This document shows positions 1 to 13,007 of a DNA stretch of 64,000 nucleotides, piece by piece. Position 1 is the first letter of the stretch, and each line of letters starts with the position of its first letter. The DNA is from Pseudomonadota bacterium. GTDB lineage: Bacteria > Pseudomonadota > Gammaproteobacteria > Burkholderiales > JBEEJL01. The translations under genes were made by a program, and so were the position numbers. The notes below the pieces were generated by a model that was not told where the DNA came from, did no database searches, and saw only the letters and a program-made list of their open reading frames with translations. The stretch spans positions 1,051 to 65,050 of the forward strand of contig JAYTVC010000049.1 of the NCBI GenBank assembly GCA_043744215.1, given 5' to 3'.

Positions 1-7
1 GAGAAGC

Positions 8-277
8 ATGAAACACGAAAATCGCAAGAAGCAATTTGGTCAAGGGATGATGGAATATCTCATCATCGTGGCAGTGGTCGCTATCGCGGCAATTGGCTGT
101 TATGGTTTTTTCGGCAAAACAGTCCGTAACTCGATGGCAGGTTTGGCCAAAGAAGTGGCCGGCCAGGATTCAGCAACGCAAATTACCGCCGCCAATACTG
201 CTGCAACCGGTGCCAATACCGCAGCGACTACGGCCGTTGGTCTTAATAACTACGGCGCAGCCAACCGCGCAAAATAA
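8..277 (+). CDS. flp: Flp/Fap-family type IVc (Tad) pilin, copy 1
   Basis: An 89-aa protein with a basic leader, then KKQFG|QGMMEYLIIVAVVAIAAI. This fits the Flp G|XXXXEY prepilin motif followed by a hydrophobic helix. It is the first gene of a Tad-type locus. Confidence 0.85.
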   Translation: MKHENRKKQFGQGMMEYLIIVAVVAIAAIGCYGFFGKTVRNSMAGLAKEVAGQDSATQITAANTAATGANTAATTAVGLNNYGAANRAK

Positions 278-282
278 ACCGA

Positions 283-1854
283 GTGGCAGTCGCGAAAACC
301 AGTTCAACGACGATGAAGAAAGAGATCATGATGAAATACGTTCGTCCCTTTCAACAGCAAGGTCAAGCCATCGTGCTGACACTGGTTTTCGCGGCTGCGC
401 TTGTTCTTATCGCGTTTTTTGTTTACAACACATCGCTGTTGGCCAATAACAAAACCAAATTGCAGGATACGGCGGATGCCGTCGCCTATAGCGCAGCCGT
501 ATTACAGGCGCGTGACCATAATTTTTCTGCCTATACCAATCGTGCGATGGTGGCCAACCAGGTGGCAGTAGCGCAGGTTGTAGGGCTTAAATCATTTTTT
601 GAAGATGCAAAGAATCAGATCGACCGGTCAGAGGGGTGGTGGCTGAAATTTTGGCGCTGGATGGCCGGCGATATGACCAACCTGACTTGGGATATTCCAC
701 TCGCCCTTGCAAAACCCTTGGTAAATGTGGCCAACAATGAAATCAATTCATCCGCAAGAGGCCTTGCCACCGGGCTGGATGTGCTAATCGTAGGGCTTGA
801 AAAAGCACAGAATTTACATCATGACTTTACTGGCGTTGATATGTTGTTGGCGATGTCAAAAGTGACGTCCGAGAACGATCCGGACATCCAGGTTTCCAAA
901 GGAACTTTTCAGATCGGGAATATGCCGATACGCATCAAGAAATGGCGCGACTATACGGCCAGTCGTCACGCGAACGATAATTCGGAAGACCGGTTTGCGA
1001 ATGTGACGGTTGATTCTTTGGATCGATTTTCCGTAAACCGCACTTCGCCGCGTTTCGTTCCATCGCTGCTGGCTTTGGGCGCGGGAAACATGGGTGTGAA
1101 GCTATGCGTAGGAGCGACATTTTCTGCTATTGGTTTTACATCCGTGCATGGCGGGGGTACGCAACTTAGCCGAAACAAAAAGAAGTGGCGTGCCCTGGAT
1201 GCGACCGAAGGTAGTGGCGCATGGGTTTGTGTTTACGGCTGCGGTTTCCCTCCCTGTGGTGCGACAGTCGGTTCACCTATATTAGAGCTCGGAGGCAGCG
1301 GCGGCGCGATGGTAGGCAGCGGGTCGGGTTACGGTGGCGAAGTAAACGGATTTACCCGCAGCGGCTTCAACAATGGTTATGGGTGGGCGCTGTTTAATCC
1401 CCTTGTCGCGGTTCCAGCATGGTACAGGTTTGGCGTAACAGGCACAGGCGGGTCCCTCGATAATTCAGCACGTGGCGGTTTGCAAGATACTTATCGTGAT
1501 TTGGCAGATGTATCCAAGCTTCCAAAAGATCGGTCTGCCGAAGCCAATAGCGCACCCTACATTACAGTCGAATTGGAAAAAGGTGCGACAAAAAATAGAA
1601 CGTCCGATGTCGTGATGCCCGGCAGTAATGCGCTGAAGCTGGCTCCTGATCTCAAGGGGGGCAAGATGAAGACGCTGAGTTCTGCGCAAACCTATTTCAT
1701 GCGCCCAAACAACAACAGTTCCATGACAGGAACCGGTTGGAAAAGGCTTATTGATAACAAAACCGAGTATGCCAATTTATTTAATCCTTATTGGCAGGCC
1801 CGTTTATCCAAAACCCCGGACGCAGAAAAAGCCGCTTCCGCTCTGGCGCAATAG
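283..1854 (+). CDS. TadG-like pilus-assembly protein / large pseudopilin
   Basis: The N-terminus FQQQG|QAIVLTLVFAAALVLIAFFVYN followed by TADAVAYSAAVLQARDHNFSAYTNRAMVANQ resembles the TadG-like N-terminal domain. The C-terminal part is Gly/Cys-rich. The start is ambiguous: GTG 283, ATG 313 or ATG 328, the last preceded by gaaagag. Confidence 0.65.
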   Translation: MAVAKTSSTTMKKEIMMKYVRPFQQQGQAIVLTLVFAAALVLIAFFVYNTSLLANNKTKLQDTADAVAYSAAVLQARDHNFSAYTNRAMVANQVAVAQVVGLKSFFEDAKNQIDRSEGWWLKFWRWMAGDMTNLTWDIPLALAKPLVNVANNEINSSARGLATGLDVLIVGLEKAQNLHHDFTGVDMLLAMSKVTSENDPDIQVSKGTFQIGNMPIRIKKWRDYTASRHANDNSEDRFANVTVDSLDRFSVNRTSPRFVPSLLALGAGNMGVKLCVGATFSAIGFTSVHGGGTQLSRNKKKWRALDATEGSGAWVCVYGCGFPPCGATVGSPILELGGSGGAMVGSGSGYGGEVNGFTRSGFNNGYGWALFNPLVAVPAWYRFGVTGTGGSLDNSARGGLQDTYRDLADVSKLPKDRSAEANSAPYITVELEKGATKNRTSDVVMPGSNALKLAPDLKGGKMKTLSSAQTYFMRPNNNSSMTGTGWKRLIDNKTEYANLFNPYWQARLSKTPDAEKAASALAQ

Positions 1855-1860
1855 GCGAAT

Positions 1861-2718
1861 ATGGGAGTGAAAATGCAAACAGTTACAGCACGCGCAGGCA
1901 ATAGGAATCATCGTATTCATGGCCAAGCCCTGACAGAATTTCTGGTAGCGGGATTATTTTTTATTGTCCCAATTATTTTGATTATCGCCACGGTGGCAAA
2001 GCTATCGGATGTGAAATATACGGCGATTCAAGCATCACGCTATTCAGCCTGGGAAAAAACGGTTTGGGCGAACGATGAATCAGCATGGATGGCCAGCCAA
2101 AAACCGAATTCAAAATCTAATGCCAATATTCGCAATGAAATTGCGACGAGGATGGTGACCGATCGAAGGAGCGGCCTAGTGTTCAAAAACACGGATAAAA
2201 CCGCCACCTCGTTCGTAAACGGCAGCTCATTCCTGTGGAAGGACCCGGAAGGAAAAAAATATCTGGAAAAATATGCTGACTTAAATGGCATTGATAACCG
2301 TAAAAAATCCCCCGATATTTTGAGCAAGGCTATCGGCGGCCTGGGGAGCATAACGGTGCCCGGTTTGGGAGCGATCGGGTTGGAAGTGCCGTCGCAGAAT
2401 CTGCAATCGCAGATCGTTTCTTTTGACGTAGCCCAATCCAGCAGTTCACTGAAGCGGCTGTTTAAGGACACACCCGGTGCATGGACCGGAATGAAGATTA
2501 GCGATACCTCGTCCATCTTGACCAATACCTGGATGCCGAACGGGGCCAACAACAATCGCGACCTGGTCAAAGGTCTTGCGCCCATGTCCACCACAGCGGC
2601 ACAAGTGCTAGCAGCGCCGCTCTATGCCGGTATGGGCGTCATGGATCCGGTGACACTAAGTGGTTTTGATTTAGGCAAGATCGATATCGATCGAGTGCCG
2701 GTGGACCGGCTTAAGTAA
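1861..2718 (+). CDS. TadE/TadF-like pseudopilin
   Basis: The leader ends RIHG|QALTEFLVAGLFFIVPIILII, a TadE-like prepilin motif with Glu at +5. An alternative start at ATG 1873 has a gggag RBS. Confidence 0.7.
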   Translation: MGVKMQTVTARAGNRNHRIHGQALTEFLVAGLFFIVPIILIIATVAKLSDVKYTAIQASRYSAWEKTVWANDESAWMASQKPNSKSNANIRNEIATRMVTDRRSGLVFKNTDKTATSFVNGSSFLWKDPEGKKYLEKYADLNGIDNRKKSPDILSKAIGGLGSITVPGLGAIGLEVPSQNLQSQIVSFDVAQSSSSLKRLFKDTPGAWTGMKISDTSSILTNTWMPNGANNNRDLVKGLAPMSTTAAQVLAAPLYAGMGVMDPVTLSGFDLGKIDIDRVPVDRLK

Positions 2719-3458
2719 TGGGAGTGATGATGAAAATAGCCTGCCAGCCTTTGCGCATGTGTCGACTGAAATATGTTGTTCCCAGTCTGTGCTTGTACCT
2801 GATCAGCGGCGGCATCATGGCTTCGGCTGCAACCTGCGACGTGAAAAAAAATGAGGTGGCAGCCGGCGCCTGGATCGCTCCCGAAGTGACGGCCAACAAA
2901 CTTCCGTTGTCGATTATGGAAGTAAAATCCAATCAGCCGATGAAATTGCTGCTTGATGAGTTTGTCGAGAAATGGAAAAAGGAAGGCGCGAAAACACGCC
3001 AGTATGATGCGGCAGGCTGGAAGGTTGCCGGCGCATTGTACGGTGATTGTTTTTATACCTTACAGTTGATCGAAGATGCGACGAAAGGTGCCAAATCCTA
3101 CGGCTATCTTTCAGCAAGCAAACTCAATCAGATGTCAAAGTCTTACGATAAATTCAAAAATTTGCCCGTACTGGCCGGCGCGGAAGTCGTGTCGGATGTG
3201 GAATCCAATGATAGCGGTAAATTAGGCCGGACCATCGTACTAACGAGCACCACATCGCCGTTGAAAGTGAATGATTATTACGTCACGCAGCTTTACAAGG
3301 AGGGCTGGGGTTTCAGTGCCAACCAAACCCAGATGTTGGATAAAAGTAATTCGGTGCATTTAATTGTGGCAAAAAAAGCCGGTGTCGAAGTCGATATGGT
3401 GATTGCCGAGGCCGAAGGCAAAACCGTGATCACTGCCGTCATGACAGATAAACCCTGA
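2718..3458 (+). CDS. Hypothetical exported protein in the Tad locus
   Basis: The start overlaps the upstream stop (TAATG). There is an N-terminal hydrophobic signal-like segment, and I recognise no family. Confidence 0.5.
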   Translation: MGVMMKIACQPLRMCRLKYVVPSLCLYLISGGIMASAATCDVKKNEVAAGAWIAPEVTANKLPLSIMEVKSNQPMKLLLDEFVEKWKKEGAKTRQYDAAGWKVAGALYGDCFYTLQLIEDATKGAKSYGYLSASKLNQMSKSYDKFKNLPVLAGAEVVSDVESNDSGKLGRTIVLTSTTSPLKVNDYYVTQLYKEGWGFSANQTQMLDKSNSVHLIVAKKAGVEVDMVIAEAEGKTVITAVMTDKP

Positions 3459-3528
3459 TTCAACCTGCTATCAGCGTTCAGGCGCACCAGTACCCATTCA
3501 AAGTTGTTTCCCAGCGCTTTCAAAATAC

Positions 3529-3544
3529 TGTGAACCAAATCACA
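3529..3544. promoter_or_regulatory. Candidate CRP/Vfr-type binding site
   Basis: TGTGAACCAAATCACA has perfect TGTGA-N6-TCACA half-sites. It lies about 105-120 bp upstream of the flp2-cpaB operon start. Confidence 0.45.
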
Positions 3545-3574
3545 GTCAAAGGTTACTCATTAGTATGGGTGGAT

Positions 3575-3601
3575 AATATTTTTATATAAATCAATAGGTT
3601 A
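3575..3601 (-). repeat. 27-bp AT-rich intergenic motif copy (weaker distal half)
   Basis: The reverse strand reads taacctattgatttatataaaaatatt. The plus-strand core AAATCAATAGGTTA matches WATCAANNNNTTR. It lies 47-62 bp upstream of flp2. Confidence 0.45.
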
Positions 3602-3647
3602 TATAAAGACAGTATTTCACCCCAAGTGGCCATACAAGACGGTATCG

Positions 3648-3845
3648 ATGAAAGGAAAGCAGATGAGCACGATCAATCTCGCTAAACAATATGGCCAGAG
3701 TATGTCGGAATATCTCGTTGTTTTATTTTTTTCTGTCGTGGTGTTGATAGTGGGCGGTAATTCTTCAGTCATGCAACAAGTCATGTCGGCTATTAAGGGA
3801 TTTTTCAAAGCCTACGCGTATGCCATGTCTGTTGTGCCCATCTAA
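3648..3845 (+). CDS. flp: Flp-like pilin, copy 2
   Basis: A 65-aa ORF with AKQYG|QSMSEYLVVLFFSVVVLIV, the Flp G|XXXXEY motif plus a hydrophobic helix. The more likely start is ATG 3663, which is preceded by aggaaa. The gene sits directly upstream of cpaB. Confidence 0.75.
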   Translation: MKGKQMSTINLAKQYGQSMSEYLVVLFFSVVVLIVGGNSSVMQQVMSAIKGFFKAYAYAMSVVPI

Positions 3846-3919
3846 TCCCGGCCTGGAAAAATTATTTTTGAGATGCGAAATAGAATTCAATTCATTTTAA
3901 TCAGCCCAAGGAAAATATT

Positions 3920-5020
3920 ATGGCAAGCCCGCTAAGAATTGCAGCAAAATTGAACAACCCTTGGGTGTTGTTGGTATGTGCCGGCATATTGGCGTTGCTT
4001 ATGTCTTTCGCTGCCATGTCCTATCTGCAAGATAAAGAAAAACGGCTTCGCGAAGAAATCGCACAAAAAGCCGGCAATGAGCAGACACCCAAAATAGCGG
4101 TCGTCGTGCCGCCGAAAGATGTCAAGCCAGGCACCGTCATTTCATCTGCAACGTTCGTGGCAAGAGAAATTGATGCGGATCTCGTTTATGACGACATGGT
4201 GAAAGCGTCGGAATTCAACTCCCTTACCGGCCTGAAGTTGACACAGGGCGTACAACAGGGCCGGCCGCTCAGGATGTCCGATATCCAGCCGGAAAAAGTA
4301 TCTGATGTCTCGACCATTATCGCGCCGGGCAAGCGCGCCATCACGATTGAAATAGACAGTAACAATTCCATGGCGCAAATGCTGCGCGCTGGCAATACGG
4401 TGGATTTGTATTTGATCGCCAACGAAGTGCAGCAAAAAAAGGAAGCCATTGAAGACGGTGCACCCAGTCTAGCGGCCAAATTATTTCTGCAGGATGTGCT
4501 GGTGATTGCCACCGGTAAAGACTTTCGCAAAACCGAATTGACCCAGGATGGCGGCACAAAAGCAAAAAAACCTAACGGGGTATTTGAAAATGAGAAGGAT
4601 GATAAGTACGACAGCATCACTTTGCAGGTTACCGCGAATGAAGCGGCAAGTATTGCGCTGGCGCAAAAAGTCGGTTCGCTTCGTGCAGTATTACGCGGCG
4701 AAAACGATAGACAGGCTTTGCAATTTACTTCGATTAATGCCCGAAAATTATTGACCGGCCGTGATAGCTTGCCTACGCCAAAGCAGGAAGGTGGTGTTGA
4801 AATGATACTGGGTGGCAAGGGAGCAGCAGGCGGCAAGGCGATGCAGATTCCCCAAATGTCTGATTTCTTGAAGGCGCTCCCTATGCCCGATATGAAAAAA
4901 CCGCCAGTGCCAGTCGAAGGAATCATGGTGGATAACGTACCGGCTGCGGAGCCAGCGGTTCGGCCGGGCAATTCGCCGATCCCCGCGTTGGCAAAAATGG
5001 CAGGCCAAGAGAGAAAATAG
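3920..5020 (+). CDS. cpaB: Flp pilus assembly protein CpaB/RcpC
   Basis: It has an N-terminal TM anchor, then a SAF-like segment (VVVPPKDVKPGTVISSATF) and an RcpC-like core (GKRAITIEID, GNTVDLYL, VLVIATG). It occupies the canonical position before the secretin. Confidence 0.8.
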   Translation: MASPLRIAAKLNNPWVLLVCAGILALLMSFAAMSYLQDKEKRLREEIAQKAGNEQTPKIAVVVPPKDVKPGTVISSATFVAREIDADLVYDDMVKASEFNSLTGLKLTQGVQQGRPLRMSDIQPEKVSDVSTIIAPGKRAITIEIDSNNSMAQMLRAGNTVDLYLIANEVQQKKEAIEDGAPSLAAKLFLQDVLVIATGKDFRKTELTQDGGTKAKKPNGVFENEKDDKYDSITLQVTANEAASIALAQKVGSLRAVLRGENDRQALQFTSINARKLLTGRDSLPTPKQEGGVEMILGGKGAAGGKAMQIPQMSDFLKALPMPDMKKPPVPVEGIMVDNVPAAEPAVRPGNSPIPALAKMAGQERK

Positions 5021-5081
5021 TTTTTAGGAAATTTAAAAACCGATATTTTTAAATCGAATTCAGGAATAAGGACGGCAAATC

Positions 5082-6863
5082 ATGAAAGCATTCAACCACT
5101 ATTCAGCAGGAATTATGTTCACATTGTTAGCAACTATGGGCAATGCAAACATTGAAGCCAGCGCTGCGGACAACAGGGTTGCGGCATTGTCCGGGGTTCA
5201 TGCGAGCCAATCTGAAGCCGTTGAAAAAAGTCGCCCGCAGAAAAATATTAGCTTGCGCGTGGGCGAAACCAGCGCCTTTCGTGTTGAAGGCGCCATCAAA
5301 CAAGTCGTGATGGGCAAAAGCGGCTTGGTCATAGCGCAATCCAATGATAATCAAATATTGCTGTCCGGCCAGATTCCGGGTGAAACCAATCTGCATGTAT
5401 GGACTACCACGGCTCTCTATGTTTACAAACTGACGGTGTCCGGAGAAGTCAGTCCGGCGGCAAATTATTCCACCGCGAGTTCCATGCCGACCGCTCCCGT
5501 TGCCCAGGTTTCACGCGCAGTGATTCAAGAACAGCCGGAATCCCGCGCACAGGCCCACTACGCTGCTCAGCCGGAAAAAACATCTTTCCAGGCGGTGTCT
5601 GATGAGGTGGCGGCGACAGAAAAAATGACGCTGTATAAAGGCCAGATAAGATCCCTTCCGGTGGAAGGGAAAATCAAACGTATCGCGGTTGGCAATAGCG
5701 CATTGCTGACAACCACAGCCGTTGATAATCAGGTGTTGCTGATTGGCGAAGACACGGGCGATACCAGTCTGTATATCTGGACGGCGACCAATCATTACCG
5801 TTACAAAGTTACCGTCGTGCAATCGGATCCGGCCGATCTTGAGCGCCAATTACAAACGATTTTGCGCCGCTCACCGGAAATTGCGGTGGAGCGATCCGGC
5901 GGAAGATTGATTCTGACCGGCGTGACCCATACAGATAATTTGTCTATCGTAAGCAATGCGGTCAAAAACATGGCGGGCGTGGTGAACTTGCTTAAGGCGG
6001 ACGAAGGCCAGCCGCTGAAAAAGACAGTCATGTTCAAAGTGCAATTGGTTGAAGTGTCCAAAAATGTTTTGCAGGAGATTGGCGTGCAGTGGGATAAAAG
6101 CCTACATGGCCCACAGGGTGCTGTTCAAGGCGTGCTGGGTAAAGGTGGCGTATATGGCACCTTGCCTCAAGGCCAACCGGATTTTTCCAAATTGCCCAAT
6201 ACGCCATTTAGCGTGGGTGGCGCGATCAATGGCGCGTTTGTCGGCATCACTTCCGCGATCACCTCAAAAATTAATTTTGCCATCAACAGTGGCGACGCCT
6301 ACGTGTTGGCAGCGCCGGAATTGTCGAGTAAGAGCGGCGGCAAAGCGTCGTTTCTTGCGGGTGGAGAAGTGCCCATCGTGAAGGCTGGCGCTTTCGGAAC
6401 GACGGATGTGGAATACAAAAAGTACGGCATTCTGTTGAATATTTCCCCTGTCATCGATGCCAACAATAATATTTCCGCCCGCATTGAGACGGAAATGAGC
6501 CAGATCGATGCATCCAGCTCGTATGGCGGGTTTCCCGGTTTCCTCACGCGCCGCACTGAATCCGATGTCAGCCTCGCGGCCGGGCAGACCATCGCGTTGT
6601 CCGGCTTGATGTCGGCGAATTCATCCAATGCCGTGGATAAAGTGCCGTTCCTCGGTGACTTGCCTGTCCTGGGCCGTTTATTCCGCTCCGAAAGTTTCAG
6701 AAAAAATAAGTCTGATTTGGTCATTTTTGTGTCACCCGTTGTGATGGATCCTGAAGCAGACAAAAATATTCGTATGCTCGAACTTGCCGCGCAAATTCAG
6801 CGCGATCAAAAAGCGTTGGAAGTTGCGAAAGAGATTCCGCCACTGAAAATCATCAACAACTAA
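5082..6863 (+). CDS. cpaC: Tad secretin CpaC/RcpA
   Basis: It has a signal peptide and two tandem pilus-formation N-terminal repeats (ISLRVGETSAFRVEG...YKLTV and MTLYKGQIRSLPVEG...YKVTV). The C-terminal secretin domain contains VPFLGDLPVLGRLFRS. Confidence 0.9.
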   Translation: MKAFNHYSAGIMFTLLATMGNANIEASAADNRVAALSGVHASQSEAVEKSRPQKNISLRVGETSAFRVEGAIKQVVMGKSGLVIAQSNDNQILLSGQIPGETNLHVWTTTALYVYKLTVSGEVSPAANYSTASSMPTAPVAQVSRAVIQEQPESRAQAHYAAQPEKTSFQAVSDEVAATEKMTLYKGQIRSLPVEGKIKRIAVGNSALLTTTAVDNQVLLIGEDTGDTSLYIWTATNHYRYKVTVVQSDPADLERQLQTILRRSPEIAVERSGGRLILTGVTHTDNLSIVSNAVKNMAGVVNLLKADEGQPLKKTVMFKVQLVEVSKNVLQEIGVQWDKSLHGPQGAVQGVLGKGGVYGTLPQGQPDFSKLPNTPFSVGGAINGAFVGITSAITSKINFAINSGDAYVLAAPELSSKSGGKASFLAGGEVPIVKAGAFGTTDVEYKKYGILLNISPVIDANNNISARIETEMSQIDASSSYGGFPGFLTRRTESDVSLAAGQTIALSGLMSANSSNAVDKVPFLGDLPVLGRLFRSESFRKNKSDLVIFVSPVVMDPEADKNIRMLELAAQIQRDQKALEVAKEIPPLKIINN

Positions 6864-6883
6864 TCGTTTATCAGGAAAAAATC

Positions 6884-8650
6884 ATGTTTAGTGTAGAAGT
6901 GATTAAAAGCGGTAAGACCATCTTTTCTGCCGAATGCGCGAATGATGCGTGCGTTCTGGGACGCGATAACAATGCCTTCTTCGTGCTAAAAGGTTGGATG
7001 ATTGGTAAGCAGCAGATCAAGCTAAGCATGCAAAAAGGGGACGTGTTTGTGGAAGACGGCGGTGGCATCACCGGCCTTTTCGTCAACGGCAAATCCATCA
7101 ACCGTTACGGCCCTTTGCATGCGACCGATGTGATCGAAATTGCCGACTATAAAATCCGGGCGTATGCGGCGGAGTCGTTCGCCAAACCGCAAAAGAACGA
7201 AAGCAAACTATCAGGTTTGGCGGAATCTAACAACGCAGACAATCCCAATCAACCGAAAGCGAATCCCATTCAATCAGGGAGCCAGGAGCGCGGCGAAGTA
7301 CATTTGGTGGATACAGCCTCGGGTATTGCGCTGCGGTTACGTATACATAAAAAACTGATTGAAATGATGGACTTACGTAGGGTTAACGTCGCTCGTATGA
7401 GCGATGAAGAATTGCGACAAAGTGTCAGCACCCTGATCGATGAAATCATCACAGCAGATTCCAGCTTCCGTGAATTTCAAGGCGCGCGCGAAGATTTACG
7501 AGATTGCGTATTGAACGAAGTGGTAGGGCTTGGCCCGTTAGAGAGTTTGCTTGCTGATGAAAGCGTTACTGAAGTAATGGTAAATCGATACAACGACATT
7601 TTTATTGAAAAAAATGGCAAGCTGATGCGCTCATCCATCAGCTTTTCCAACGACGCTGCAGTGCTGTCGGCCATTGAGCGGATTGTCGCTCCGTTAGGCC
7701 GCCGCATTGACGAGAGTTCACCGATGGTTGATGCGCGCTTGAAAGATGGCTCCCGCGTCAATGCCATTATTCCGCCCCTGGCCATCAAAGGGCCTTGCAT
7801 TACCATCCGTAAATTTTCCCGGCGTCGTTTGCACGATGCAGATTTGCTCAAGTTCGGTTCCATCTCCCGCGAAATGCTTTTGTTCATGAGAATGTCCGTT
7901 GAGCAGCGTGCCAATGTGGTGATTTCAGGCGGCACAGGCTCCGGCAAAACCACTTTGTTGAATGTATTATCGAATTACATCCCTGATGACGAACGCATCG
8001 TGACAGTAGAAGATGCCGCTGAATTACAATTGAACCAACCCAATCTGGTTTCCCTCGAAGCACGCCCGGCAAACATCGAAGGGCGTGGTGCCGTTCCAAT
8101 CCGTGATCTGGTCAAAAACTGTTTACGTATGCGACCGGATCGTATCGTGGTCGGCGAGTGTCGTGGCGGCGAAGCGCTGGATATGTTGCAGGCCATGAAC
8201 ACTGGCCACGACGGTTCGCTCACTACCGCCCACGCCAATACGCCCCGTGATTGCCTCTCGCGTTTGGAAGTGATGGCGCTGATGTCCGGTTTGGATATTC
8301 CGATTTCCGCCATCCGCGATCAGGTGGCATCGGCAGTCGATATTATTATTCAACAGACGCGTTTTTCCTGCGGCAGCCGTCGGGTGACGCACATTTCTGA
8401 AGTCGTCGGCATGGAGCAAGGAACGATTCAATTGCAAGACATATTCCTGTTTAAGCAAAATGGTTTCGGGGCCGATGGAAAAATCCGTGGTGAATACGTG
8501 GCTACCGGCCATATTCCCGATTTCTATCACAACCTGATGGAGCGCGGTCTTGAAGTGGATATTTCCATTTTCCACAACAACACCGTAAAACCGGTGATAA
8601 AACCTGAAGCTAGTGCGGAATTGAACCAGGAAGTGAGGGCCGTTGCATGA
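6884..8650 (+). CDS. cpaF: CpaF/TadA secretion ATPase with N-terminal FHA-like domain
   Basis: Walker A is GGTGSGKTT, Walker B-like is DRIVVGECRG, and the His box is GHDGSLTTAHAN. An N-terminal extension of about 100 aa (CVLGRDNN...LFVNGKSINRYGPLHATDVIEIADYKIR) looks like an FHA fold. Confidence 0.85.
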   Translation: MFSVEVIKSGKTIFSAECANDACVLGRDNNAFFVLKGWMIGKQQIKLSMQKGDVFVEDGGGITGLFVNGKSINRYGPLHATDVIEIADYKIRAYAAESFAKPQKNESKLSGLAESNNADNPNQPKANPIQSGSQERGEVHLVDTASGIALRLRIHKKLIEMMDLRRVNVARMSDEELRQSVSTLIDEIITADSSFREFQGAREDLRDCVLNEVVGLGPLESLLADESVTEVMVNRYNDIFIEKNGKLMRSSISFSNDAAVLSAIERIVAPLGRRIDESSPMVDARLKDGSRVNAIIPPLAIKGPCITIRKFSRRRLHDADLLKFGSISREMLLFMRMSVEQRANVVISGGTGSGKTTLLNVLSNYIPDDERIVTVEDAAELQLNQPNLVSLEARPANIEGRGAVPIRDLVKNCLRMRPDRIVVGECRGGEALDMLQAMNTGHDGSLTTAHANTPRDCLSRLEVMALMSGLDIPISAIRDQVASAVDIIIQQTRFSCGSRRVTHISEVVGMEQGTIQLQDIFLFKQNGFGADGKIRGEYVATGHIPDFYHNLMERGLEVDISIFHNNTVKPVIKPEASAELNQEVRAVA

Positions 8651-9495
8651 ATATCTATGTGATCGCCGCGCTGGGTTTTGTCTCGTTTTTTGCCATGCTG
8701 GTCATTATCTTTCGCCAGGGTGGCAATTGGTTTGCCAAGAAGCAAAAAGTGCAAGCCAATCACGCGGCCGATTCCCTGGAAGGCCTATTTATTTTTACCG
8801 ACTCCAGCAACATTATGTTGATCAACATCGTCGTCATGATTTTGATGCCGATATTGGCGTGGTTTATATCGGGAAACTTCATTATCGTTGTCGGGAGCGC
8901 GATATTGGCTTTCATGTTACCGAAAAAAGTGGTGCGCCATTTGATGAAGAAGCGGTTAGAAAAATTTGAACTGCAATTACCGGATGCGTTACTCATGATT
9001 ACAGGCGCACTTCGAGCCGGAGCCAGTTTACCGATCGCGCTGGAGAGCGTAGTCAGCGATGCGGCGCCACCGGTATCCCAGGAATTTGATTTGTTATTGC
9101 GAGAGATGAGAATGGGCGTGGATTTCAGCGTGGCGTTGAGAAATCTGGAAACCCGTGTGCCATTGCCCGATCTATTAATGGTGACATCCGGGATGAGTCT
9201 GGCACGGGATATTGGTGCCAACCTGGCGGAAACGCTGGAGTCTATCGGCAAGACGTTGCGCAGTAAATTGCAAATGGAAGGCAAAATCCGCAGTTTGACC
9301 GCGCAAGGAAAAATGCAAGGCATGGTCATGGCTGCACTGCCGTTTTTTTTGATGCTGGTATTGAACGTGATGGAGCCGGAAGCCATGGCACCCCTATTCA
9401 ATCGATGGTTTGGCTGGATCACGCTGGCAATAGTGATTGTGATGGATATGATTGGTTATTTTTTCATCAAAAAAATTACGAGTATCGACGTATGA
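8647..9495 (+). CDS. tadB: TadB (T2SS-F family inner-membrane platform protein)
   Basis: There is an ATGA overlap with cpaF. The protein is polytopic with a T2SSF-like cytoplasmic domain (LPDALLMITGALRAGASLPIALE) and sits in the canonical position. Confidence 0.8.
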   Translation: MNIYVIAALGFVSFFAMLVIIFRQGGNWFAKKQKVQANHAADSLEGLFIFTDSSNIMLINIVVMILMPILAWFISGNFIIVVGSAILAFMLPKKVVRHLMKKRLEKFELQLPDALLMITGALRAGASLPIALESVVSDAAPPVSQEFDLLLREMRMGVDFSVALRNLETRVPLPDLLMVTSGMSLARDIGANLAETLESIGKTLRSKLQMEGKIRSLTAQGKMQGMVMAALPFFLMLVLNVMEPEAMAPLFNRWFGWITLAIVIVMDMIGYFFIKKITSIDV

Positions 9496-10376
9496 GCACT
9501 TACCTGCTTGCTCTGTTTATAGGCATCGGTTTTGTCTGCTTTGTGGGCATGGTGATTTACAGCGTCCTCAACCTTAAAGCTGAAGTGCCGCAGGAAGATC
9601 GGGAATACCTTGACCCTTTACCCAAGGGCTTGCGCATGGTGTGGCCCCTGGTGCGTTTTCTTGACTATCAAATCGGGAGTAGGATTCCCGAACGCATGAT
9701 TGCGCGCCCGGCTGAGATGCTGCGGCAAACCGGTTTGCTTTACTTGATGAGCGGCCGACAATTTATCTCGCTGTGTATTTTTAGTGCCATCTGTTTTGCA
9801 TTGATCAGCGCATTCTGTATCTCAATTGTTTGGGAAATGAATTATCTGGTCGTCCTCGGCGCAGCCGCATTCGGATTTGTTTACCCCAATACATGGTTGC
9901 GTAAATCATTGATTAATAGAAGAAAATTGATATTAAAAGGTTTGCCTGCTTATCTTGATTTTCTCACTATGGGCATTGAAGCTGGCTTGAATATGGCAGG
10001 TTCAATTCAGCAGGCGGTGATGAAAGGGCCGGCCGGCCCGCTAAAAAATGAAATGGGTTTGGTGCTGCGTGATTTGCGTTCCGGGCTCAATCGCGCTGAA
10101 GCGCTGCAACGTATGAACGAACGTATCGGTGTGGCAGAAGTAAGTAATTTTGTGAACGCTGTGGTGCAAGCCGAGCGGATGGGCGCAAGTTTGGGCCCGA
10201 CGTTTCGCTACCAGGCAGATCAGCGCCGAACCGAACGATTTCAACGCGCCGAAAAAATGGCGATGGAAGCGCCTGTCAAACTGATATTTCCTCTTGTCGC
10301 TTTTATTTTTCCCATAACCTTTCTGGTTTTGTTGTTTCCCATCGCGATGAAATACATTGAAAGCGGGGGCTTATGA
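9492..10376 (+). CDS. tadC: TadC (T2SS-F family inner-membrane platform protein)
   Basis: I take the start at ATG 9492 (MSTYLLALF), which overlaps the tadB stop (ATGA). The T2SSF-like domain contains LPAYLDFLTMGIEAGLNMAGSIQ. The ORF track extends upstream to 9405. Confidence 0.8.
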   Translation: MSTYLLALFIGIGFVCFVGMVIYSVLNLKAEVPQEDREYLDPLPKGLRMVWPLVRFLDYQIGSRIPERMIARPAEMLRQTGLLYLMSGRQFISLCIFSAICFALISAFCISIVWEMNYLVVLGAAAFGFVYPNTWLRKSLINRRKLILKGLPAYLDFLTMGIEAGLNMAGSIQQAVMKGPAGPLKNEMGLVLRDLRSGLNRAEALQRMNERIGVAEVSNFVNAVVQAERMGASLGPTFRYQADQRRTERFQRAEKMAMEAPVKLIFPLVAFIFPITFLVLLFPIAMKYIESGGL

Positions 10377-10738
10377 AAACGGCTACGCTAAGCGTGCAAG
10401 AAAATCGTTTCAATACGCATATTGCCATTCGCATTGCCGAATCTTATTTCGATCGGTTGCGCGGGTTGTTGGGTCGCCCTGCGTTAAAAGGTAACCAGGG
10501 TTTGCTTATCCGCCCGTGCTCATCAATCCATACGTTGGGCATGGCTTATTCGCTGGATGTCGTTTTTCTCGACAGCGAAATGAATATCATCAAGCTCAGC
10601 CCTGCGGTGCGCCCCTCGCGCGTGCGCGTGGCGGGCAAAGCCCAATCGGTATTGGAATTATCCGGCGGCACAATTGACAGGATGGGCATGAAAGTAGGCC
10701 AGCGTCTGCAATTGAACGTGAACCCAGCACAAAGGTGA
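10373..10738 (+). CDS. DUF192-family protein
   Basis: RLRGLLGRPALKGNQGLLIRPCSSIHTLGMAYSLDVVFLD matches the DUF192 (COG1430) signature region as I remember it. There is an ATGA overlap with tadC. Confidence 0.65.
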   Translation: MKTATLSVQENRFNTHIAIRIAESYFDRLRGLLGRPALKGNQGLLIRPCSSIHTLGMAYSLDVVFLDSEMNIIKLSPAVRPSRVRVAGKAQSVLELSGGTIDRMGMKVGQRLQLNVNPAQR

Positions 10739-10745
10739 GGGCAAA

Positions 10746-11507
10746 TTGAAAACTATCCATTGTTTTTATTCGTTGCCGTCGCCAAAAAAAATGGCTGGGC
10801 AAACTTTTGTCGAGTACCTGGTGATATTGCCCGTGCTCTTATTGTTATTGTTGGGAGCGATACAGTTTGGTTTTATCTACCAGGCAAAATCAACCTTGAA
10901 CTATGCAGCTTATCTGGCCGCGCGTGAAGGCGCGCTCGATGCGGGTAAGAAATCCAGTATGCAAAACGCACTGGCTAGCGGCTTGACACCGTTGTTCACC
11001 CACCAGGCGACCCCGGCAGGCGTCGTGGCGGGCAGGGCAACAGCCTTCTTTGAAACAAAACCCATACCCGGTATCAATGTCAGTCCATCCAAAATAGTGG
11101 TGCTCAATCCTACTGCCGATCAATTCAGGGATTTTGCCGTGAATAGCTTAGCGGGTGGCAGCGGCAAGGAGATTCCCAATGACACCTTGTCTTATAGAAA
11201 AACCACTTTGGGTGCCAAATCCGGCGTACCGATTCAAGATGCCAATATTTTGAAAATTCGTGTGACCTATTGTTACCAATTGACGGTGCCTATTGCAGAT
11301 AGAGTTATTCATGCATTGTCAGTAGGGATCAATAGTTTTACCGATGGCCATTCTTTGACGGAGTTTTACGGACGCGGGTCTGCTCTGGAGTATTTTCTGA
11401 AAGATCCCTGCCGTGCCGTTAACACTTTCGGTAAAGGCCACCGCATAGAAATTCAGTCAGAAGCCATTGTCCGTATGCAAACCCCTTTTCTGGAGGCGAA
11501 TTTATAA
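10746..11507 (+). CDS. TadE-like pseudopilin
   Basis: KKMAG|QTFVEYLVILPVLLLLLLGAIQFGFIY is a TadE-like N-terminal motif. The start is ambiguous (TTG 10746 or ATG 10791). Confidence 0.7.
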   Translation: MKTIHCFYSLPSPKKMAGQTFVEYLVILPVLLLLLLGAIQFGFIYQAKSTLNYAAYLAAREGALDAGKKSSMQNALASGLTPLFTHQATPAGVVAGRATAFFETKPIPGINVSPSKIVVLNPTADQFRDFAVNSLAGGSGKEIPNDTLSYRKTTLGAKSGVPIQDANILKIRVTYCYQLTVPIADRVIHALSVGINSFTDGHSLTEFYGRGSALEYFLKDPCRAVNTFGKGHRIEIQSEAIVRMQTPFLEANL

Positions 11508-12016
11508 TGGGTAAACGAATCTCGATGACAGGCGTTACCTTGCTGTGGCTGATCTTTACCGGCAGCTTAGCGGCCCAGGCAAGTGAACCTGTGCGTTATA
11601 CCAATGTCGATGGCATTGAAATGATTTCCAATGCGGGCAAGTCTCATAAAACGGTATCGCTTGAAACTAAACAAAAGGAGCCGAAAGATTTACAGCCCAG
11701 CATGGAGTTTAAGCCTGCTTCGTTATCCGTTACTGGCAGCAAAAGCAGATCGCAAGGCATGATGCCCGTGAGTTTGGATGCCAATTTTAAGGTCGATTCA
11801 GGTGTGCAAAAAAACCGTGATGCGAGCCGCATGAAAATACTGCAAGATGAATTGGAAACGGAGATGGCGCATATGAAAGACAAGCAGCTCGCCATGAAAC
11901 GCCTTGGTCCTTCAGAGCCGAAAAATGAAGAGTTGAGAATTGCATTGCTTGAAAGTGTGACAAATCACGAAAAAAACATAATGTCTCTATTGAAAGAATT
12001 GCAGATAAAAAAGTAG
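11507..12016 (+). CDS. Exported protein with DUF4124-like N-terminus and coiled-coil C-terminus
   Basis: A signal peptide (LAAQA|SE) is followed by VRYTNVDGIEMISN, which resembles the DUF4124 motif. The C-terminus is charged and helical. The start overlaps the upstream stop (TAATG). Confidence 0.45.
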   Translation: MGKRISMTGVTLLWLIFTGSLAAQASEPVRYTNVDGIEMISNAGKSHKTVSLETKQKEPKDLQPSMEFKPASLSVTGSKSRSQGMMPVSLDANFKVDSGVQKNRDASRMKILQDELETEMAHMKDKQLAMKRLGPSEPKNEELRIALLESVTNHEKNIMSLLKELQIKK

Positions 12017-12064
12017 CGGGTATAGTGAATGTAGCAGCCCCCTATGCGCCTATAAGATTTGTTG

Positions 12065-12091
12065 TAACTTATTGATTTTATTGAATATTTT
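12065..12091 (+). repeat. 27-bp AT-rich intergenic motif copy (IHF-consensus-like core)
   Basis: taacttattgattttattgaatatttt. The complement contains AATCAATAAGTTA, which matches WATCAANNNNTTR. Confidence 0.6.
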
Positions 12092-12127
12092 CTATTTCCT
12101 CGTGCTTCCGACTTTTGATTTGGAGAA

Positions 12128-12868
12128 GTGATGATATCCATTAAACCATTGCTGCAGATAGCTTTACTTTTTATGGTTGCGCTAACAGCCCATGCCGCCG
12201 ATCCCAATATGCCTCGGCCCGGGCTCTACAAACTAGAGTTCGACACTAATGTTACATCTCCATACTTGGCTGACTCAGCTGGTGGGAAAAGCGATTCAGC
12301 GACTGGGCAGATAACGCAAATTATAAATGGTAAGGCAGTCAACACTTTTCAAGGCAAACCGCAGAACATTTGTGTCGACGATCCACTGAAAATGAAAAAC
12401 CCGATTCCCAACGTAGGCAACTGCAAGGCTAAATATGTCGTCGGCATCAAAGAGACCACTATCACCAGCCAATGTGAACATGCGGATATGTTAAGCGTAA
12501 ATAGAAAAATCAGTGACAATGTTTACCAATCGGACGTTACCTTAACCCAGAAATCCATGTCGGCGATGCGCGGAATAGATGCGAGTGCAGAGGGGATGGA
12601 AGCAATGATGGCAATGGCTACTACACCGGAAGAGCGCGAAAAAATTCGTCAAGCTATGGCACAGGGTCCGAGTATTGCCGAAAGAAAGGCTCAGGCGGCC
12701 GAGATGATAGCGGCAATGGAAGCAGAACTGAAAAATGAAACTGACCCCAGTACACGTCAAGCCATGCAAAAAAACCTGGATATGATGAAGGGCAACAGTG
12801 CGCCGAGCGTCTTGATGAAGACGACCGCGCGCCAAATTTGGACTCGCATCGGCAACTGCACCAAATAG
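12128..12868 (+). CDS. Hypothetical exported protein (possibly DUF3617-like)
   Basis: It has a signal peptide (ALTAHA|AD), conserved Cys residues and a Met/Ala/Glu-rich C-terminal half. The family assignment is tentative. Confidence 0.45.
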   Translation: MMISIKPLLQIALLFMVALTAHAADPNMPRPGLYKLEFDTNVTSPYLADSAGGKSDSATGQITQIINGKAVNTFQGKPQNICVDDPLKMKNPIPNVGNCKAKYVVGIKETTITSQCEHADMLSVNRKISDNVYQSDVTLTQKSMSAMRGIDASAEGMEAMMAMATTPEEREKIRQAMAQGPSIAERKAQAAEMIAAMEAELKNETDPSTRQAMQKNLDMMKGNSAPSVLMKTTARQIWTRIGNCTK

Positions 12869-12890
12869 AATTTACCGTAGGATATTAAAA

Positions 12891-12920
12891 GCTGCCAACT
12901 TATGTTGGCGGCTTTTTTTT
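12891..12920 (+). terminator. Rho-independent terminator
   Basis: The stem is gctgccaac / gttggcggc with loop ttat, followed by T8. It lies immediately after the 12128-12868 gene. Confidence 0.7.
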
Positions 12921-13007
12921 GGTCGCGCTTCTGGAAAGCGCAATCACAGGCATGTGCAATCTATGGGATAATTCATTTAATTATCGTTCAAAAAGAAAGA
13001 GGCAAGA

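What the first reader, a model, noticed from the sequence alone, without database searches (positions are those of the whole stretch)
1..12016. Non-canonical Tad/Flp pilus locus: two Flp pilins, a locus-wide G|Q processing signature, and no TadZ, TadV or TadD in the window
The sequence shows the order flp1, tadG-like, tadE/F-like, an orphan exported protein, flp2, cpaB, cpaC, FHA-cpaF, tadB, tadC, DUF192, tadE-like and a DUF4124-like protein. Five proteins carry the same predicted cleavage context with Gln at +1: FG|QGMMEY, QG|QAIVLT, HG|QALTEF, YG|QSMSEY and AG|QTFVEY. That implies one dedicated prepilin peptidase, yet no A24-type peptidase is encoded in the window. The cpaC stop (6863) is followed 20 nt later by cpaF (6884), so the ParA/MinD-like TadZ/CpaE that normally sits there is absent. 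No TPR lipoprotein TadD or RcpB is recognisable either. The large pseudopilin genes sit between the two pilin genes rather than at the distal end. Together this looks like a distinct Tad sub-architecture rather than the Aggregatibacter or Caulobacter layout.
Basis: partly seen in the sequence, partly recalled or inferred. Interest (0 to 1): 0.6.

Follow-up and report, generated by a model that had tools for sequence, protein, structure and literature searches.

The report
TadZ-less Tad pilus operon, FHA-type ATPase
This is a complete Tad-type pilus operon of a widespread but unstudied subfamily whose motor ATPase carries an FHA domain in place of the usual TadZ partner. It relies on a pilin-cutting peptidase encoded somewhere else, and in several relatives toxin genes sit inside the same operon.

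Summary
No TadZ, A24 peptidase or TPR lipoprotein is encoded anywhere in the 64 kb.

Corrections:
- A third pilin gene lies 85 bp upstream of the window.
- The operon runs to 12,868 and ends at a strong terminator (12,887–12,916).
- The "orphan" protein belongs to a conserved family.

The gene order recurs in more than 25 loci, mainly Beta- and Gammaproteobacteria. All carry FHA-CpaF, and none has TadZ or TadV within 10 kb. Across 67 loci, FHA and TadZ never co-occur (27 versus 29).

Three points weaken it:
- G|Q is not special to this locus. TadZ+/TadV+ loci of Firmicutes, Chloroflexi and Acidobacteria share it, and it mirrors archaeal EppA substrates.
- A small TadD-like TPR lipoprotein exists in 13 family members, so its absence here is lineage-specific.
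- FHA-CpaF ("class III") and the TadZ-less Kil system are already published.

Seven relatives carry Sec-signal RHS or PT-HINT toxins directly after tadE; the window does not.

Verdict: a new variant of a known kind, of moderate interest.

The parts
8..277 (+). flp1, an 89-aa Flp-type pilin with KKQFG|QGMMEY. It is a tandem paralog of flp0, which lies just upstream of the window (L001 868-1152).
   Evidence: weak Pfam Class_IIIsignal hit, E=0.005
331..1854 (+). tadG-like large pseudopilin (ORF opens at 283), QQG|QAIVLT
   Evidence: Pfam Tad PF13400, 3.3e-7; 40-43% identity to orthologs in the same position
1873..2718 (+). 281-aa pseudopilin-like protein (ORF opens at 1861), HG|QALTEF. It has no Pfam family.
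   Evidence: conserved orthologs at 34-39% identity
2730..3458 (+). Predicted alpha/beta fold, weakly Mog1/PsbP/DcrB-like.
   Evidence: 13 locus homologs and 37 database homologs; AF2 pLDDT 64, with the C-terminal half at 85-94; Foldseek best hit DcrB, E=1e-3
3663..3845 (+). flp2, a 60-aa second short pilin (ORF opens at 3648), YG|QSMSEY
   Evidence: orthologs directly upstream of cpaB in relatives
3920..5020 (+). cpaB/rcpC
   Evidence: Pfam RcpC 1.8e-21 and SAF; NCBIfam pilus_cpaB 1.3e-36
5082..6863 (+). cpaC/rcpA secretin with two N-terminal pil_N stretches
   Evidence: Pfam Secretin 1.4e-37; T2SS-T3SS_pil_N 3e-19, two stretches
6884..8650 (+). FHA-CpaF ('class III' CpaF). FHA covers residues 24-86 (nt 6953-7141), followed by a linker and the CpaF core at residues about 154-560.
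   Evidence: Pfam FHA 1.1e-7 and T2SSE 1.4e-62; Caulobacter CpaF structures at E=5e-116 over residues 154-560; FHA alignment
8647..9495 (+). tadB platform protein
   Evidence: Pfam T2SSF 9e-17
9492..10376 (+). tadC platform protein (ORF opens at 9405; the likely start is MSTYLL at 9492)
   Evidence: Pfam T2SSF 3e-17; 63% identity to the Duganella ortholog
10373..10738 (+). DUF192 protein, a conserved accessory of this Tad clade
   Evidence: Pfam DUF192 1.6e-18; present in 23 of 25 FHA-type and 21 of 27 TadZ-type loci
10746..11507 (+). tadE-like pseudopilin, AG|QTFVEY
   Evidence: Pfam TadE 2.4e-13
11507..12016 (+). p169, an exported protein whose start overlaps the tadE stop. It is a conserved distal member of the sub-branch. 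In relatives L002 and L087 a toxin-immunity cassette lies between tadE and this gene.
   Evidence: no Pfam family
12128..12868 (+). p246, an exported protein with a PGLY-x-(L/I/V) motif. It is a conserved member that sits at varying positions in relatives.
12887..12916 (+). Intrinsic terminator closing the operon (13-bp stem, 6 GC pairs, T-run)

Best explanation
The locus is an intact operon for a type IVc (Tad/Flp-type) filament machine of the FHA-CpaF ('class III') subfamily. It runs from flp0, just upstream of the window, to p246, and ends at the terminator at 12,887.

Shown by sequence and homology: two or three short Flp-like pilins and three large pseudopilins, all with class III signal sequences (G|Q, and Glu at +5 in four of the five in the window). 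Also present are a CpaF-family ATPase, the TadB/TadC platform, the CpaB periplasmic protein and the CpaC secretin.

Inferred:
1. The pilins are cut after Gly by an A24 prepilin peptidase encoded elsewhere in the genome, either a TadV-type enzyme or the housekeeping PilD/GspO.
2. The N-terminal FHA domain of the ATPase takes over the docking or recruitment role that TadZ plays in canonical systems. It has lost the canonical phosphothreonine-binding residues, so it probably acts as a phospho-independent protein-protein module.
3. The secretin assembles without a TadD-type pilotin in this lineage. The lineage-specific exported proteins p169 and p246 may contribute.

The output is a surface filament for adhesion or cell-cell contact.
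For: - Core Tad components are identified with strong scores.
- The operon is compact, with overlapping or short junctions and a terminal terminator.
- All genes are intact and syntenic in more than 25 loci from many genera. This argues for a functional unit.
- FHA and TadZ are mutually exclusive. Among loci with at least 1.6 kb upstream of cpaF, 27 were FHA+/TadZ-, 29 FHA-/TadZ+, and none had both.
- On a CpaF-core neighbour-joining tree the window falls in a proteobacterial FHA clade next to Duganella and Paraburkholderia.
- In the window's FHA domain the pThr-binding Ser is Gly41 and the His is Gln44. The Arg is Lys in most of the clade. Kil-type FHA domains keep GR..SxxH..STNG.
- Canonical relatives with the same G|Q pilins encode a 170-220 aa A24 TadV next to them, so G|Q is an A24 substrate class.
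- A complete 129.6-kb Moraxella bovis plasmid carries the whole operon but no A24 peptidase or TadZ. This shows the module travels without its peptidase.
- Published background: TadZ is a recruiting hub (PMC6668835), and prepilin peptidases are promiscuous (PMC8460266).
Against: - No peptidase could be located, because the rest of the source genome is not available.
- In archaea a +1 Gln blocks the general peptidase FlaK (PMC4371748). Processing by a housekeeping PilD is therefore not guaranteed.
- The FHA-for-TadZ substitution rests on a distribution that may reflect only one to three evolutionary events. No interaction data exist.
- The two 'Flp' pilins are not recognised by Pfam Flp_Fap or NCBIfam.
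- No expression or filament data exist.
Confidence: 0.6

Rival explanations
1. The machine is not primarily an adhesive pilus. It is a Kil-like or T2SS-like antagonism apparatus. A short pseudopilus built from the G|Q pilins would export or present Sec-exported polymorphic toxins (RHS, PT-HINT) through the secretin at cell-cell contacts. The window would be a cargo-less copy, or one that uses cargo encoded elsewhere.
For: - Toxins with Sec signal peptides lie directly after tadE on the same strand in 7 FHA-type loci. These are PT-HINT in Duganella L002, and PT-HINT+Tox-REase-5+Imm52 in L087. RHS (DUF6531...DUF6765) occurs in Massilia L015, Telluria L016, Thauera L018 and L090, and twice on the Moraxella bovis plasmid.
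- In L002 and L087 the toxin-immunity cassette lies between tadE and the conserved p169 gene, with overlapping stop and start codons.
- An RHS HMM and a YD-repeat count found RHS proteins in none of the TadZ-type loci of the genome scan. PT-HINT toxins were not screened for there.
- The Myxococcus Kil ATPase also has the FHA fusion and lacks TadZ, and a Kil-like locus (L033) is about 50% identical over the full length.
- An RHS-Tad association was noted in Bdellovibrio (PMC3818213).
Against: - The window has no toxin or immunity gene. tadE is followed directly by p169, p246 and a terminator.
- About three quarters of family loci have no adjacent toxin.
- The proteobacterial FHA domain is degenerate, unlike Kil's, and no stand-alone FHA proteins are present.
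- Polymorphic toxins often accumulate in islands.
- No experiment links any of these toxins to the machine.
Confidence: 0.2
2. It is a canonical Tad system whose tadZ, tadV and tadD are simply encoded elsewhere in the genome as a split locus. The FHA domain would then be only a regulatory add-on.
For: The rest of the source genome could not be inspected. Tad and Kil genes are split over two clusters in Myxococcus. tadV in trans is likely in any case.
Against: TadZ sits immediately upstream of cpaF in the canonical relatives, where 29 of the loci tallied have it. It is absent within +-10 kb in all 27 FHA-type loci. It is also absent from the entire Moraxella plasmid that carries the operon.
Confidence: 0.12
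3. The locus is a decaying remnant that lost essential genes (tadZ, tadV, tadD) and no longer works.
For: Three components regarded as standard are missing. GC content is lower (0.49) than in the rest of the window (0.54).
Against: All 14 ORFs are intact, with coupled junctions. The same gene set is conserved across many genera at 25-65% protein identity. This is incompatible with neutral decay.
Confidence: 0.04

Closest known systems
Canonical Tad/Cpa pilus (Aggregatibacter tad, Caulobacter cpa, Pseudomonas aeruginosa flp-rcp-tad)
   Same: It has a CpaF/TadA ATPase whose core matches the Caulobacter CpaF structures at E=5e-116. It also has TadB and TadC, CpaB/RcpC, a CpaC/RcpA secretin, short pilins with the G|xxxxEY site, and TadE/TadG pseudopilins.
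   Different: - It has no TadZ/CpaE, no TadV/CpaA and no TadD/RcpB.
- An FHA domain is fused to the ATPase.
- The large pseudopilins lie between two pilin genes.
- DUF192 and three family-specific exported proteins are present.
- The +1 residue is Gln.
Myxococcus xanthus Kil system (PMC8460266)
   Same: The ATPase carries an N-terminal FHA domain, and there is no TadZ and no TadD. A Kil-cluster-1-like locus (L033) has a CpaF about 50% identical over the full length. RHS or toxin links exist in relatives.
   Different: - It is a single compact operon rather than two clusters.
- It has no stand-alone FHA proteins.
- Its FHA domain lacks the pThr-binding residues that Kil-type domains retain.
- It falls in a separate clade on the CpaF tree.
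- It occurs in Beta- and Gammaproteobacteria, whereas Kil-like systems were reported as restricted to predatory deltaproteobacteria.
- A TadG-like protein is present.
'Class III' CpaF orthologs (FHA-IDR-3HB-NTD-CAD; e.g. Achromobacter xylosoxidans E3HIW0; PMC12019362)
   Same: The protein architecture and taxonomic bias (betaproteobacteria) are the same. Alcaligenaceae loci L034, L039 and L080 fall in the same clade.
   Different: That paper describes only the ATPase architecture. It does not mention TadZ/CpaE (0 occurrences) and assumes pThr binding, which the residues here do not support.
Archaeal EppA-dependent (Epd) pilins
   Same: The processing site is KG|Q, with a conserved +1 Gln and +5 Glu (PMC4371748). 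Tad systems are inferred to derive from an Epd-like system (PMC6668835).
   Different: This is a bacterial diderm machine with a secretin. No EppA-like large peptidase is present. Canonical bacterial relatives with G|Q pilins use small TadV-type A24 enzymes.

Membership tests
Tad/Flp type IVc pilus system | CpaF/TadA-family hexameric ATPase | tested here: met
   Pfam T2SSE 1.4e-62; Caulobacter CpaF structures at E=5e-116 over residues 154-560
Tad/Flp type IVc pilus system | Two single-T2SSF platform proteins (TadB and TadC) | tested here: met
   Pfam T2SSF 9e-17 and 3e-17 in adjacent genes
Tad/Flp type IVc pilus system | RcpC/CpaB and RcpA/CpaC secretin | tested here: met
   RcpC 1.8e-21, Secretin 1.4e-37; NCBIfam pilus_cpaB 1.3e-36
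Tad/Flp type IVc pilus system | Short Flp pilin with G|xxxxEY and TadE/F/G pseudopilins | tested here: met
   Five motif-bearing N-termini; TadE 2.4e-13 and Tad 3.3e-7. The two short pilins do not hit Pfam Flp_Fap or any NCBIfam model.
Tad/Flp type IVc pilus system | TadZ/CpaE (ParA/MinD-like) encoded next to the ATPase | tested here: not met
   No Walker KGGxGK[ST] in the window. A TadZ HMM built from canonical relatives gave no hit. The cpaC-cpaF gap is 20 nt.
Tad/Flp type IVc pilus system | Dedicated A24 prepilin peptidase (TadV/CpaA) in the locus | tested here: not met
   The A24 HMM's best window hit had E=3.6. No GxGDxK in a plausible ORF. None within 1.2 kb upstream. The rest of the genome is not testable.
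Tad/Flp type IVc pilus system | TadD TPR lipoprotein pilotin / RcpB | tested here: not met
   No TPR hit by Pfam. The HMM of the family's own TPR lipoprotein gave no window hit, although 13 relatives have it. orph246 is not TPR.
Kil-like Tad system (Myxococcus) | ATPase fused to an N-terminal FHA domain; no second (TadZ) ATPase | tested here: met
Kil-like Tad system (Myxococcus) | Several additional stand-alone FHA proteins; genes split into two clusters | tested here: not met
   FHA was found only in the ATPase among the locus proteins, and all genes form one operon. By contrast, L033 has two stand-alone FHA proteins flanking the secretin and ATPase.
Kil-like Tad system (Myxococcus) | ATPase groups with KilF in phylogeny | tested here: inconclusive
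   On the NJ tree of the CpaF core, the Myxococcota/Bdellovibrionales FHA clade and the proteobacterial FHA clade are separate neighbouring groups. The tree has no bootstrap support and no verified KilF sequence.
Kil-like Tad system (Myxococcus) | Contact-dependent prey killing | not testable with these tools
   The only evidence is the genomic association of relatives with RHS/PT-HINT toxins.
Class III CpaF (PMC12019362) | FHA domain, then a disordered linker, then the 3HB-NTD-CAD core | tested here: met
   FHA at residues 24-86. Residues about 100-150 are poorly conserved in alignment A2. The core spans 154-560.
Canonical phosphothreonine-binding FHA domain | Conserved Arg (GR), Ser and His (SxxH), and Asn (NG) that bind pThr | tested here: not met
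   The window has GR, but Ser is Gly41, His is Gln44 and STNG is GITG. The clade consensus is GK, with Ser replaced by Ala or Gly. This rests on alignment only, with no structure.

The most novel reading that the evidence does not exclude
The FHA-CpaF, TadZ-less Tad-like operons of Beta- and Gammaproteobacteria are the proteobacterial counterpart of the Kil machine. On this reading they are a dedicated pathway that exports or presents Sec-dependent polymorphic toxins (RHS, PT-HINT) through a Tad secretin. Toxin-immunity cassettes would plug into a fixed slot between tadE and p169, and that slot is empty in this window. If true, this would define a new toxin-delivery route and would name candidate effector classes for Kil-type killing, whose toxin is still unknown.
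Probability: 0.2. Interest if true: 0.8.

Novelty: new variant of a known kind. Interest (0 to 1): 0.48.

Why it matters
TadZ is treated as a core, defining component of Tad systems and as the hub that positions the machine. A large, conserved family that dispenses with it, and carries an FHA domain on the motor instead, offers a natural experiment on how Tad machines are recruited and regulated.

The survey also shows three further things:
- The G|Q pilin class is widespread in bacteria and mirrors archaeal EppA substrates, which bears on the proposed archaeal origin of Tad.
- The operon moves without its peptidase, on a plasmid for example.
- In about a quarter of relatives, polymorphic toxins sit inside the operon. 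This gives a testable lead for the unknown effectors of Kil-type contact killing.

For this particular window the locus is one ordinary, cargo-less member of that family.

Tried and rejected
- A genome-contig scan with CpaB alone found no relatives. I replaced it with a scan using an FHA-CpaF alignment.
- An exact look-up of the window's CpaF found no contig. It is an NCBI contig of 65,588 bp, probably a Burkholderiales MAG.
- A word-based homolog search for orph246 returned only the query itself. Single-sequence AlphaFold was useless, with pLDDT 44. An alignment-based search and model rescued both.
- Searching 1.84 billion representatives with the FHA N-terminus (residues 1-150) gave 436 weak hits. 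Most were fragments or generic FHA proteins, so no family count was possible.
- Rfam and tRNA scans found nothing in the window or in L001.
- The promoter scan was not above chance.
- I considered DUF192 as a substitute peptidase and rejected it. It is a small soluble protein of a known uncharacterised fold (3m7a, 3pjy), and it is equally present in loci that have TadV.
- I considered orph246 as a diverged TadD or RcpB and rejected it. It has an alpha/beta fold rather than TPR, no conserved lipobox, and it co-occurs with the TPR lipoprotein in relatives.
- Apparent TadZ and A24 regex hits in L014 were false positives, namely CpaB and an antisense ORF.
- Large unannotated ORFs opposite the operon in L003 and L014 had no Pfam hits, and I did not interpret them.

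Full report
**1. The observation**

The ORF list shows fourteen + strand genes between 8 and 12,868. Pfam confirms the core:
- CpaB/RcpC, 1.8e-21.
- A secretin, 1.4e-37, with two pil_N stretches.
- An ATPase with FHA (1.1e-7) and T2SSE (1.4e-62).
- Two T2SSF proteins.
- DUF192, 1.6e-18.
- TadE, 2.4e-13.
- A TadG-type N-terminus, 3.3e-7.

The two short pilins, the 281-aa pseudopilin, the 242-aa exported protein and the last two proteins hit no Pfam or NCBIfam family.

The pattern GQxxx[EL][YFT] plus 14 uncharged hydrophobic residues occurs exactly five times in the six-frame translation of the 64 kb. All five lie at N-termini of + strand ORFs in this locus. Codon shuffles gave a mean of 0.02. 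The cpaC stop and the cpaF start are 20 nt apart.

**2. What is missing**

A six-frame motif scan of the whole window found no plausible A24 motif and no ParA-type Walker box. I then built HMMs for TadV and TadZ from the canonical loci recovered later. These detect their targets there at E values from 1e-16 to 1e-163. In the window the best A24 hit had E=3.6 and TadZ gave none. An HMM of the family's own TPR lipoprotein also finds nothing in the window.

**3. Upstream and downstream limits**

An identical metagenome contig (L001) extends 1,236 bp upstream. It contains a third pilin paralog (WG|QGMAEY) 85 bp before flp1, then a divergent MaoC dehydratase. So tadV, tadZ and tadD are not just off the edge of the window.

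Downstream, p169 starts on the tadE stop codon. The 246-aa protein at 12128-12868 has homologs in related loci. A 13-bp-stem terminator follows at 12887-12916. The unit therefore ends at about 12.9 kb, not at 12,016. The locus has GC 0.49 against 0.54 for the rest of the window. No tRNA or Rfam element was found.

**4. A conserved family**

The FHA-CpaF has thousands of homologs. The best are 62-66% identical over the full length in Duganella, Massilia, Undibacterium and Rhodoferax.

Duganella sp. FT80W has the same gene order, and all five of its pilin-like N-termini read RG|Q.

A scan of species-representative genomes with an FHA-CpaF alignment returned 80 loci. In 21 of them the order flp, tadG, (pseudopilin, exported protein, flp2), cpaB, cpaC, cpaF, tadB, tadC, (DUF192, tadE) is kept. 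These include Chitinimonas, Paraburkholderia, Massilia, Telluria, Comamonas, Polaromonas, Alcaligenaceae, Rhodocyclaceae, Pseudomonas, Oleiphilus and Chromatiales. Four further close relatives and a Moraxella bovis plasmid show the same order.

None of these has TadZ or an A24 peptidase within +-10 kb.

**5. FHA versus TadZ**

I tallied loci with at least 1.6 kb upstream of cpaF:

| Class | Loci |
|---|---|
| FHA+, TadZ- | 27 (2 of them with an A24 peptidase) |
| FHA-, TadZ+ | 29 (18 of them with an A24 peptidase) |
| Neither | 11 |
| Both | 0 |

On a neighbour-joining tree of the CpaF core, four groups appear:
- A proteobacterial FHA clade. The window sits here with Duganella and Paraburkholderia.
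- A Myxococcota/Bdellovibrionales FHA clade.
- A PVC group (Kiritimatiellia, Verrucomicrobia, Planctomycetota, Lentisphaeria).
- The canonical TadZ clade, comprising Firmicutes, Chloroflexi, Acidobacteria, Actinobacteria and Shewanella.

The tree is rough: NJ, midpoint-rooted, without support values. The exclusivity may therefore reflect only a few evolutionary events.

**6. The FHA domain is degenerate**

Kil-type FHA domains and stand-alone FHA proteins keep GR...SxxH...STNG. The proteobacterial clade has GK or GR, Ser replaced by Ala or Gly, and no NG. The window's sub-branch additionally has His replaced by Gln; G41 and Q44 are invariant in alignment A2. Pfam also gives a weak hit to the T3SS YscD cytoplasmic FHA-fold domain (4.6e-5). 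I infer a phospho-independent docking module. No kinase or phosphatase is in the locus.

**7. G|Q is not specific to this architecture**

| Class | Pilin-like N-termini with +1 Gln |
|---|---|
| FHA-type loci | 53 of 67 |
| TadZ-type loci | 46 of 62 |

Examples from the TadZ class are EEEG|QGMTEY in Bacillus and relatives, G|QGLAEY in Chloroflexi and EEEG|QDLVEY in Acidobacteria. Shewanella, Oleidesulfovibrio and one Lentisphaeria locus use other +1 residues.

The canonical G|Q loci encode small A24 TadV enzymes. The signature therefore marks a broad pilin class cut by ordinary A24 peptidases.

It also matches archaeal EppA substrates (KG|Q, +5 Glu). EppA requires the +1 Gln, and FlaK cannot cut such substrates (PMC4371748). 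Tad systems are thought to derive from Epd-like systems (PMC6668835). G|Q may thus be an ancestral trait. Whether a housekeeping PilD accepts it remains open.

DUF192 is likewise shared by both classes: 23 of 25 FHA-type loci and 21 of 27 TadZ-type loci.

**8. TadD**

Thirteen FHA-type loci encode a 144-183 aa lipoprotein with TPR repeats between DUF192 and tadE. It has a lipobox, and Pfam TPR_16 scores 7e-14. Its HMM weakly matches the TadD-position protein of Shewanella.

The window, Duganella, Paraburkholderia and the four closest metagenomic relatives lack it. Most of these instead share p169 and p246, often together with an OmpA-family protein that the window does not have. 'No TadD' is therefore a trait of this lineage, not of the family.

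**9. The hypothetical proteins**

All four have signal peptides or a class III signal, which excludes a cytoplasmic TadZ or a polytopic peptidase.

The 242-aa protein has at least 37 homologs. With that alignment AlphaFold gave pLDDT 64, with 85-94 in the C-terminal half, and an alpha/beta fold. The best Foldseek matches are DcrB, PsbP, PA94/EagT6/SciW and LpqN at E >= 1e-3. This is a weak Mog1/PsbP-like resemblance and not TPR.

**10. Peptidase in trans**

The complete 129.6-kb Moraxella bovis plasmid NZ_CP087831.1 carries the whole operon, with a major pilin reading NQRG|QGMTEY. It carries no A24 peptidase, TadZ or TPR lipoprotein, by HMM over about 120 kb and by annotation of the whole record. 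The module is evidently mobile without its peptidase.

**11. Toxins in relatives**

Sec-signal polymorphic toxins lie directly after tadE, on the same strand:
- PT-HINT plus PoNi-type immunity genes in Duganella L002.
- PT-HINT+Tox-REase-5 with Imm52 in L087.
- RHS (DUF6531...RHS...DUF6765) in Massilia, Telluria and Thauera and in L090.
- Two RHS proteins plus a lytic transglycosylase on the Moraxella plasmid.

In L002 and L087 the cassette lies between tadE and p169, with overlapping junctions. In the window tadE and p169 abut directly.

An RHS HMM and a YD-repeat count found RHS proteins only in FHA-type loci of the genome scan and in no TadZ-type locus. PT-HINT toxins were not screened for in the TadZ-type loci.

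The Bdellovibrio hit-locus paper had already noted RHS proteins next to Tad genes (PMC3818213). Searches for a described Tad-RHS secretion route found nothing further.

**12. Comparison with the literature**

The Kil system has an FHA-fused ATPase and lacks TadZ, TadG, RcpB and TadD. It was reported as restricted to predatory deltaproteobacteria (PMC8460266).

A 2025 CpaF structure paper defined 'class III' CpaF with an N-terminal FHA domain, 'mostly found in betaproteobacteria'. It does not discuss TadZ (PMC12019362).

The ATPase architecture is therefore known. I did not find the following described: the conserved TadZ-less and TadV-less operon in Beta- and Gammaproteobacteria, its degenerate FHA domain, its accessory proteins, or its embedded toxin cassettes.

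**13. Verdict**

The locus is an intact member of a widespread, experimentally unstudied variant of the Tad system. Its most likely mode of operation is a Tad-type filament machine. The FHA domain would stand in for TadZ, and an A24 peptidase would be supplied in trans.

The more novel reading is a Kil-like toxin-delivery machine. It is not excluded, but this window offers no direct support because it carries no toxin.

Noticed in passing
L001 868-1152 (85 bp upstream of window position 8): A third Flp-type pilin gene (94 aa, LWG|QGMAEY) is tandem to flp1. Beyond it lies a divergent MaoC dehydratase. Relatives L088 and L089 also have two tandem major-pilin genes.
   Followed up: yes
window 12887-12916 (+): A strong intrinsic terminator (13-bp stem, then a T-run) sits 19 nt after the stop of the 246-aa gene.
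   Followed up: yes
L002 14619-18901; L087 14705-19357; L090 14871-21701; L015, L016, L018; L083 18940-29725: Sec-signal polymorphic toxins (PT-HINT, Tox-REase-5, RHS/DUF6531/DUF6765) with immunity-like genes (Imm52, PoNi_C) lie directly after tadE. In two loci they lie between tadE and the p169 homolog. RHS proteins were found in none of the TadZ-type loci.
   Followed up: partly
L010 13710-14144; L006 13784-14269; 11 further loci: A small TPR lipoprotein (a TadD-like pilotin candidate) lies between DUF192 and tadE in 13 FHA-type loci. It is absent from the window's sub-branch.
   Followed up: yes
L083-L086 (Moraxella bovis plasmid NZ_CP087831.1): The whole FHA-type Tad operon sits on a 129.6-kb plasmid. 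The plasmid also carries Dot/Icm-type T4SS genes, giant DUF2235 (Tle1-like) proteins, an RHS cluster and a Fic protein. It has no prepilin peptidase.
   Followed up: partly
window 5082-6863: The secretin has two pil_N stretches and is about 100 aa longer than its Duganella ortholog, which has one. This looks like a lineage-specific domain duplication in a lineage that also lacks the TPR lipoprotein.
   Followed up: no
L025 4068-6176; L058 9074-11287; L078 9071-11287: These CpaF ORFs of 700-740 aa have N-terminal parts that hit the TadZ HMM (E from 1e-14 to 1e-32). They may be TadZ-like or receiver-like domains fused to CpaF, in Elusimicrobia and an unclassified bacterium. ORF starts were not verified.
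   Followed up: no
window 1-14000 versus 16000-64000: GC is 0.47-0.51 across the Tad operon and 0.52-0.57 in most of the rest of the window. No integrase, tRNA or repeat boundary was seen, so an island origin is unproven.
   Followed up: partly
L087 4737-6595; L088 1127-2943 (-); L089 1957-2958 and 15007-18125; L004 15410-16840; L013 14587-15531: OmpA-family proteins, usually next to p246-family paralogs (PPPGLY motif), recur in or beside FHA-type loci. The window has p246 but no OmpA partner.
   Followed up: no
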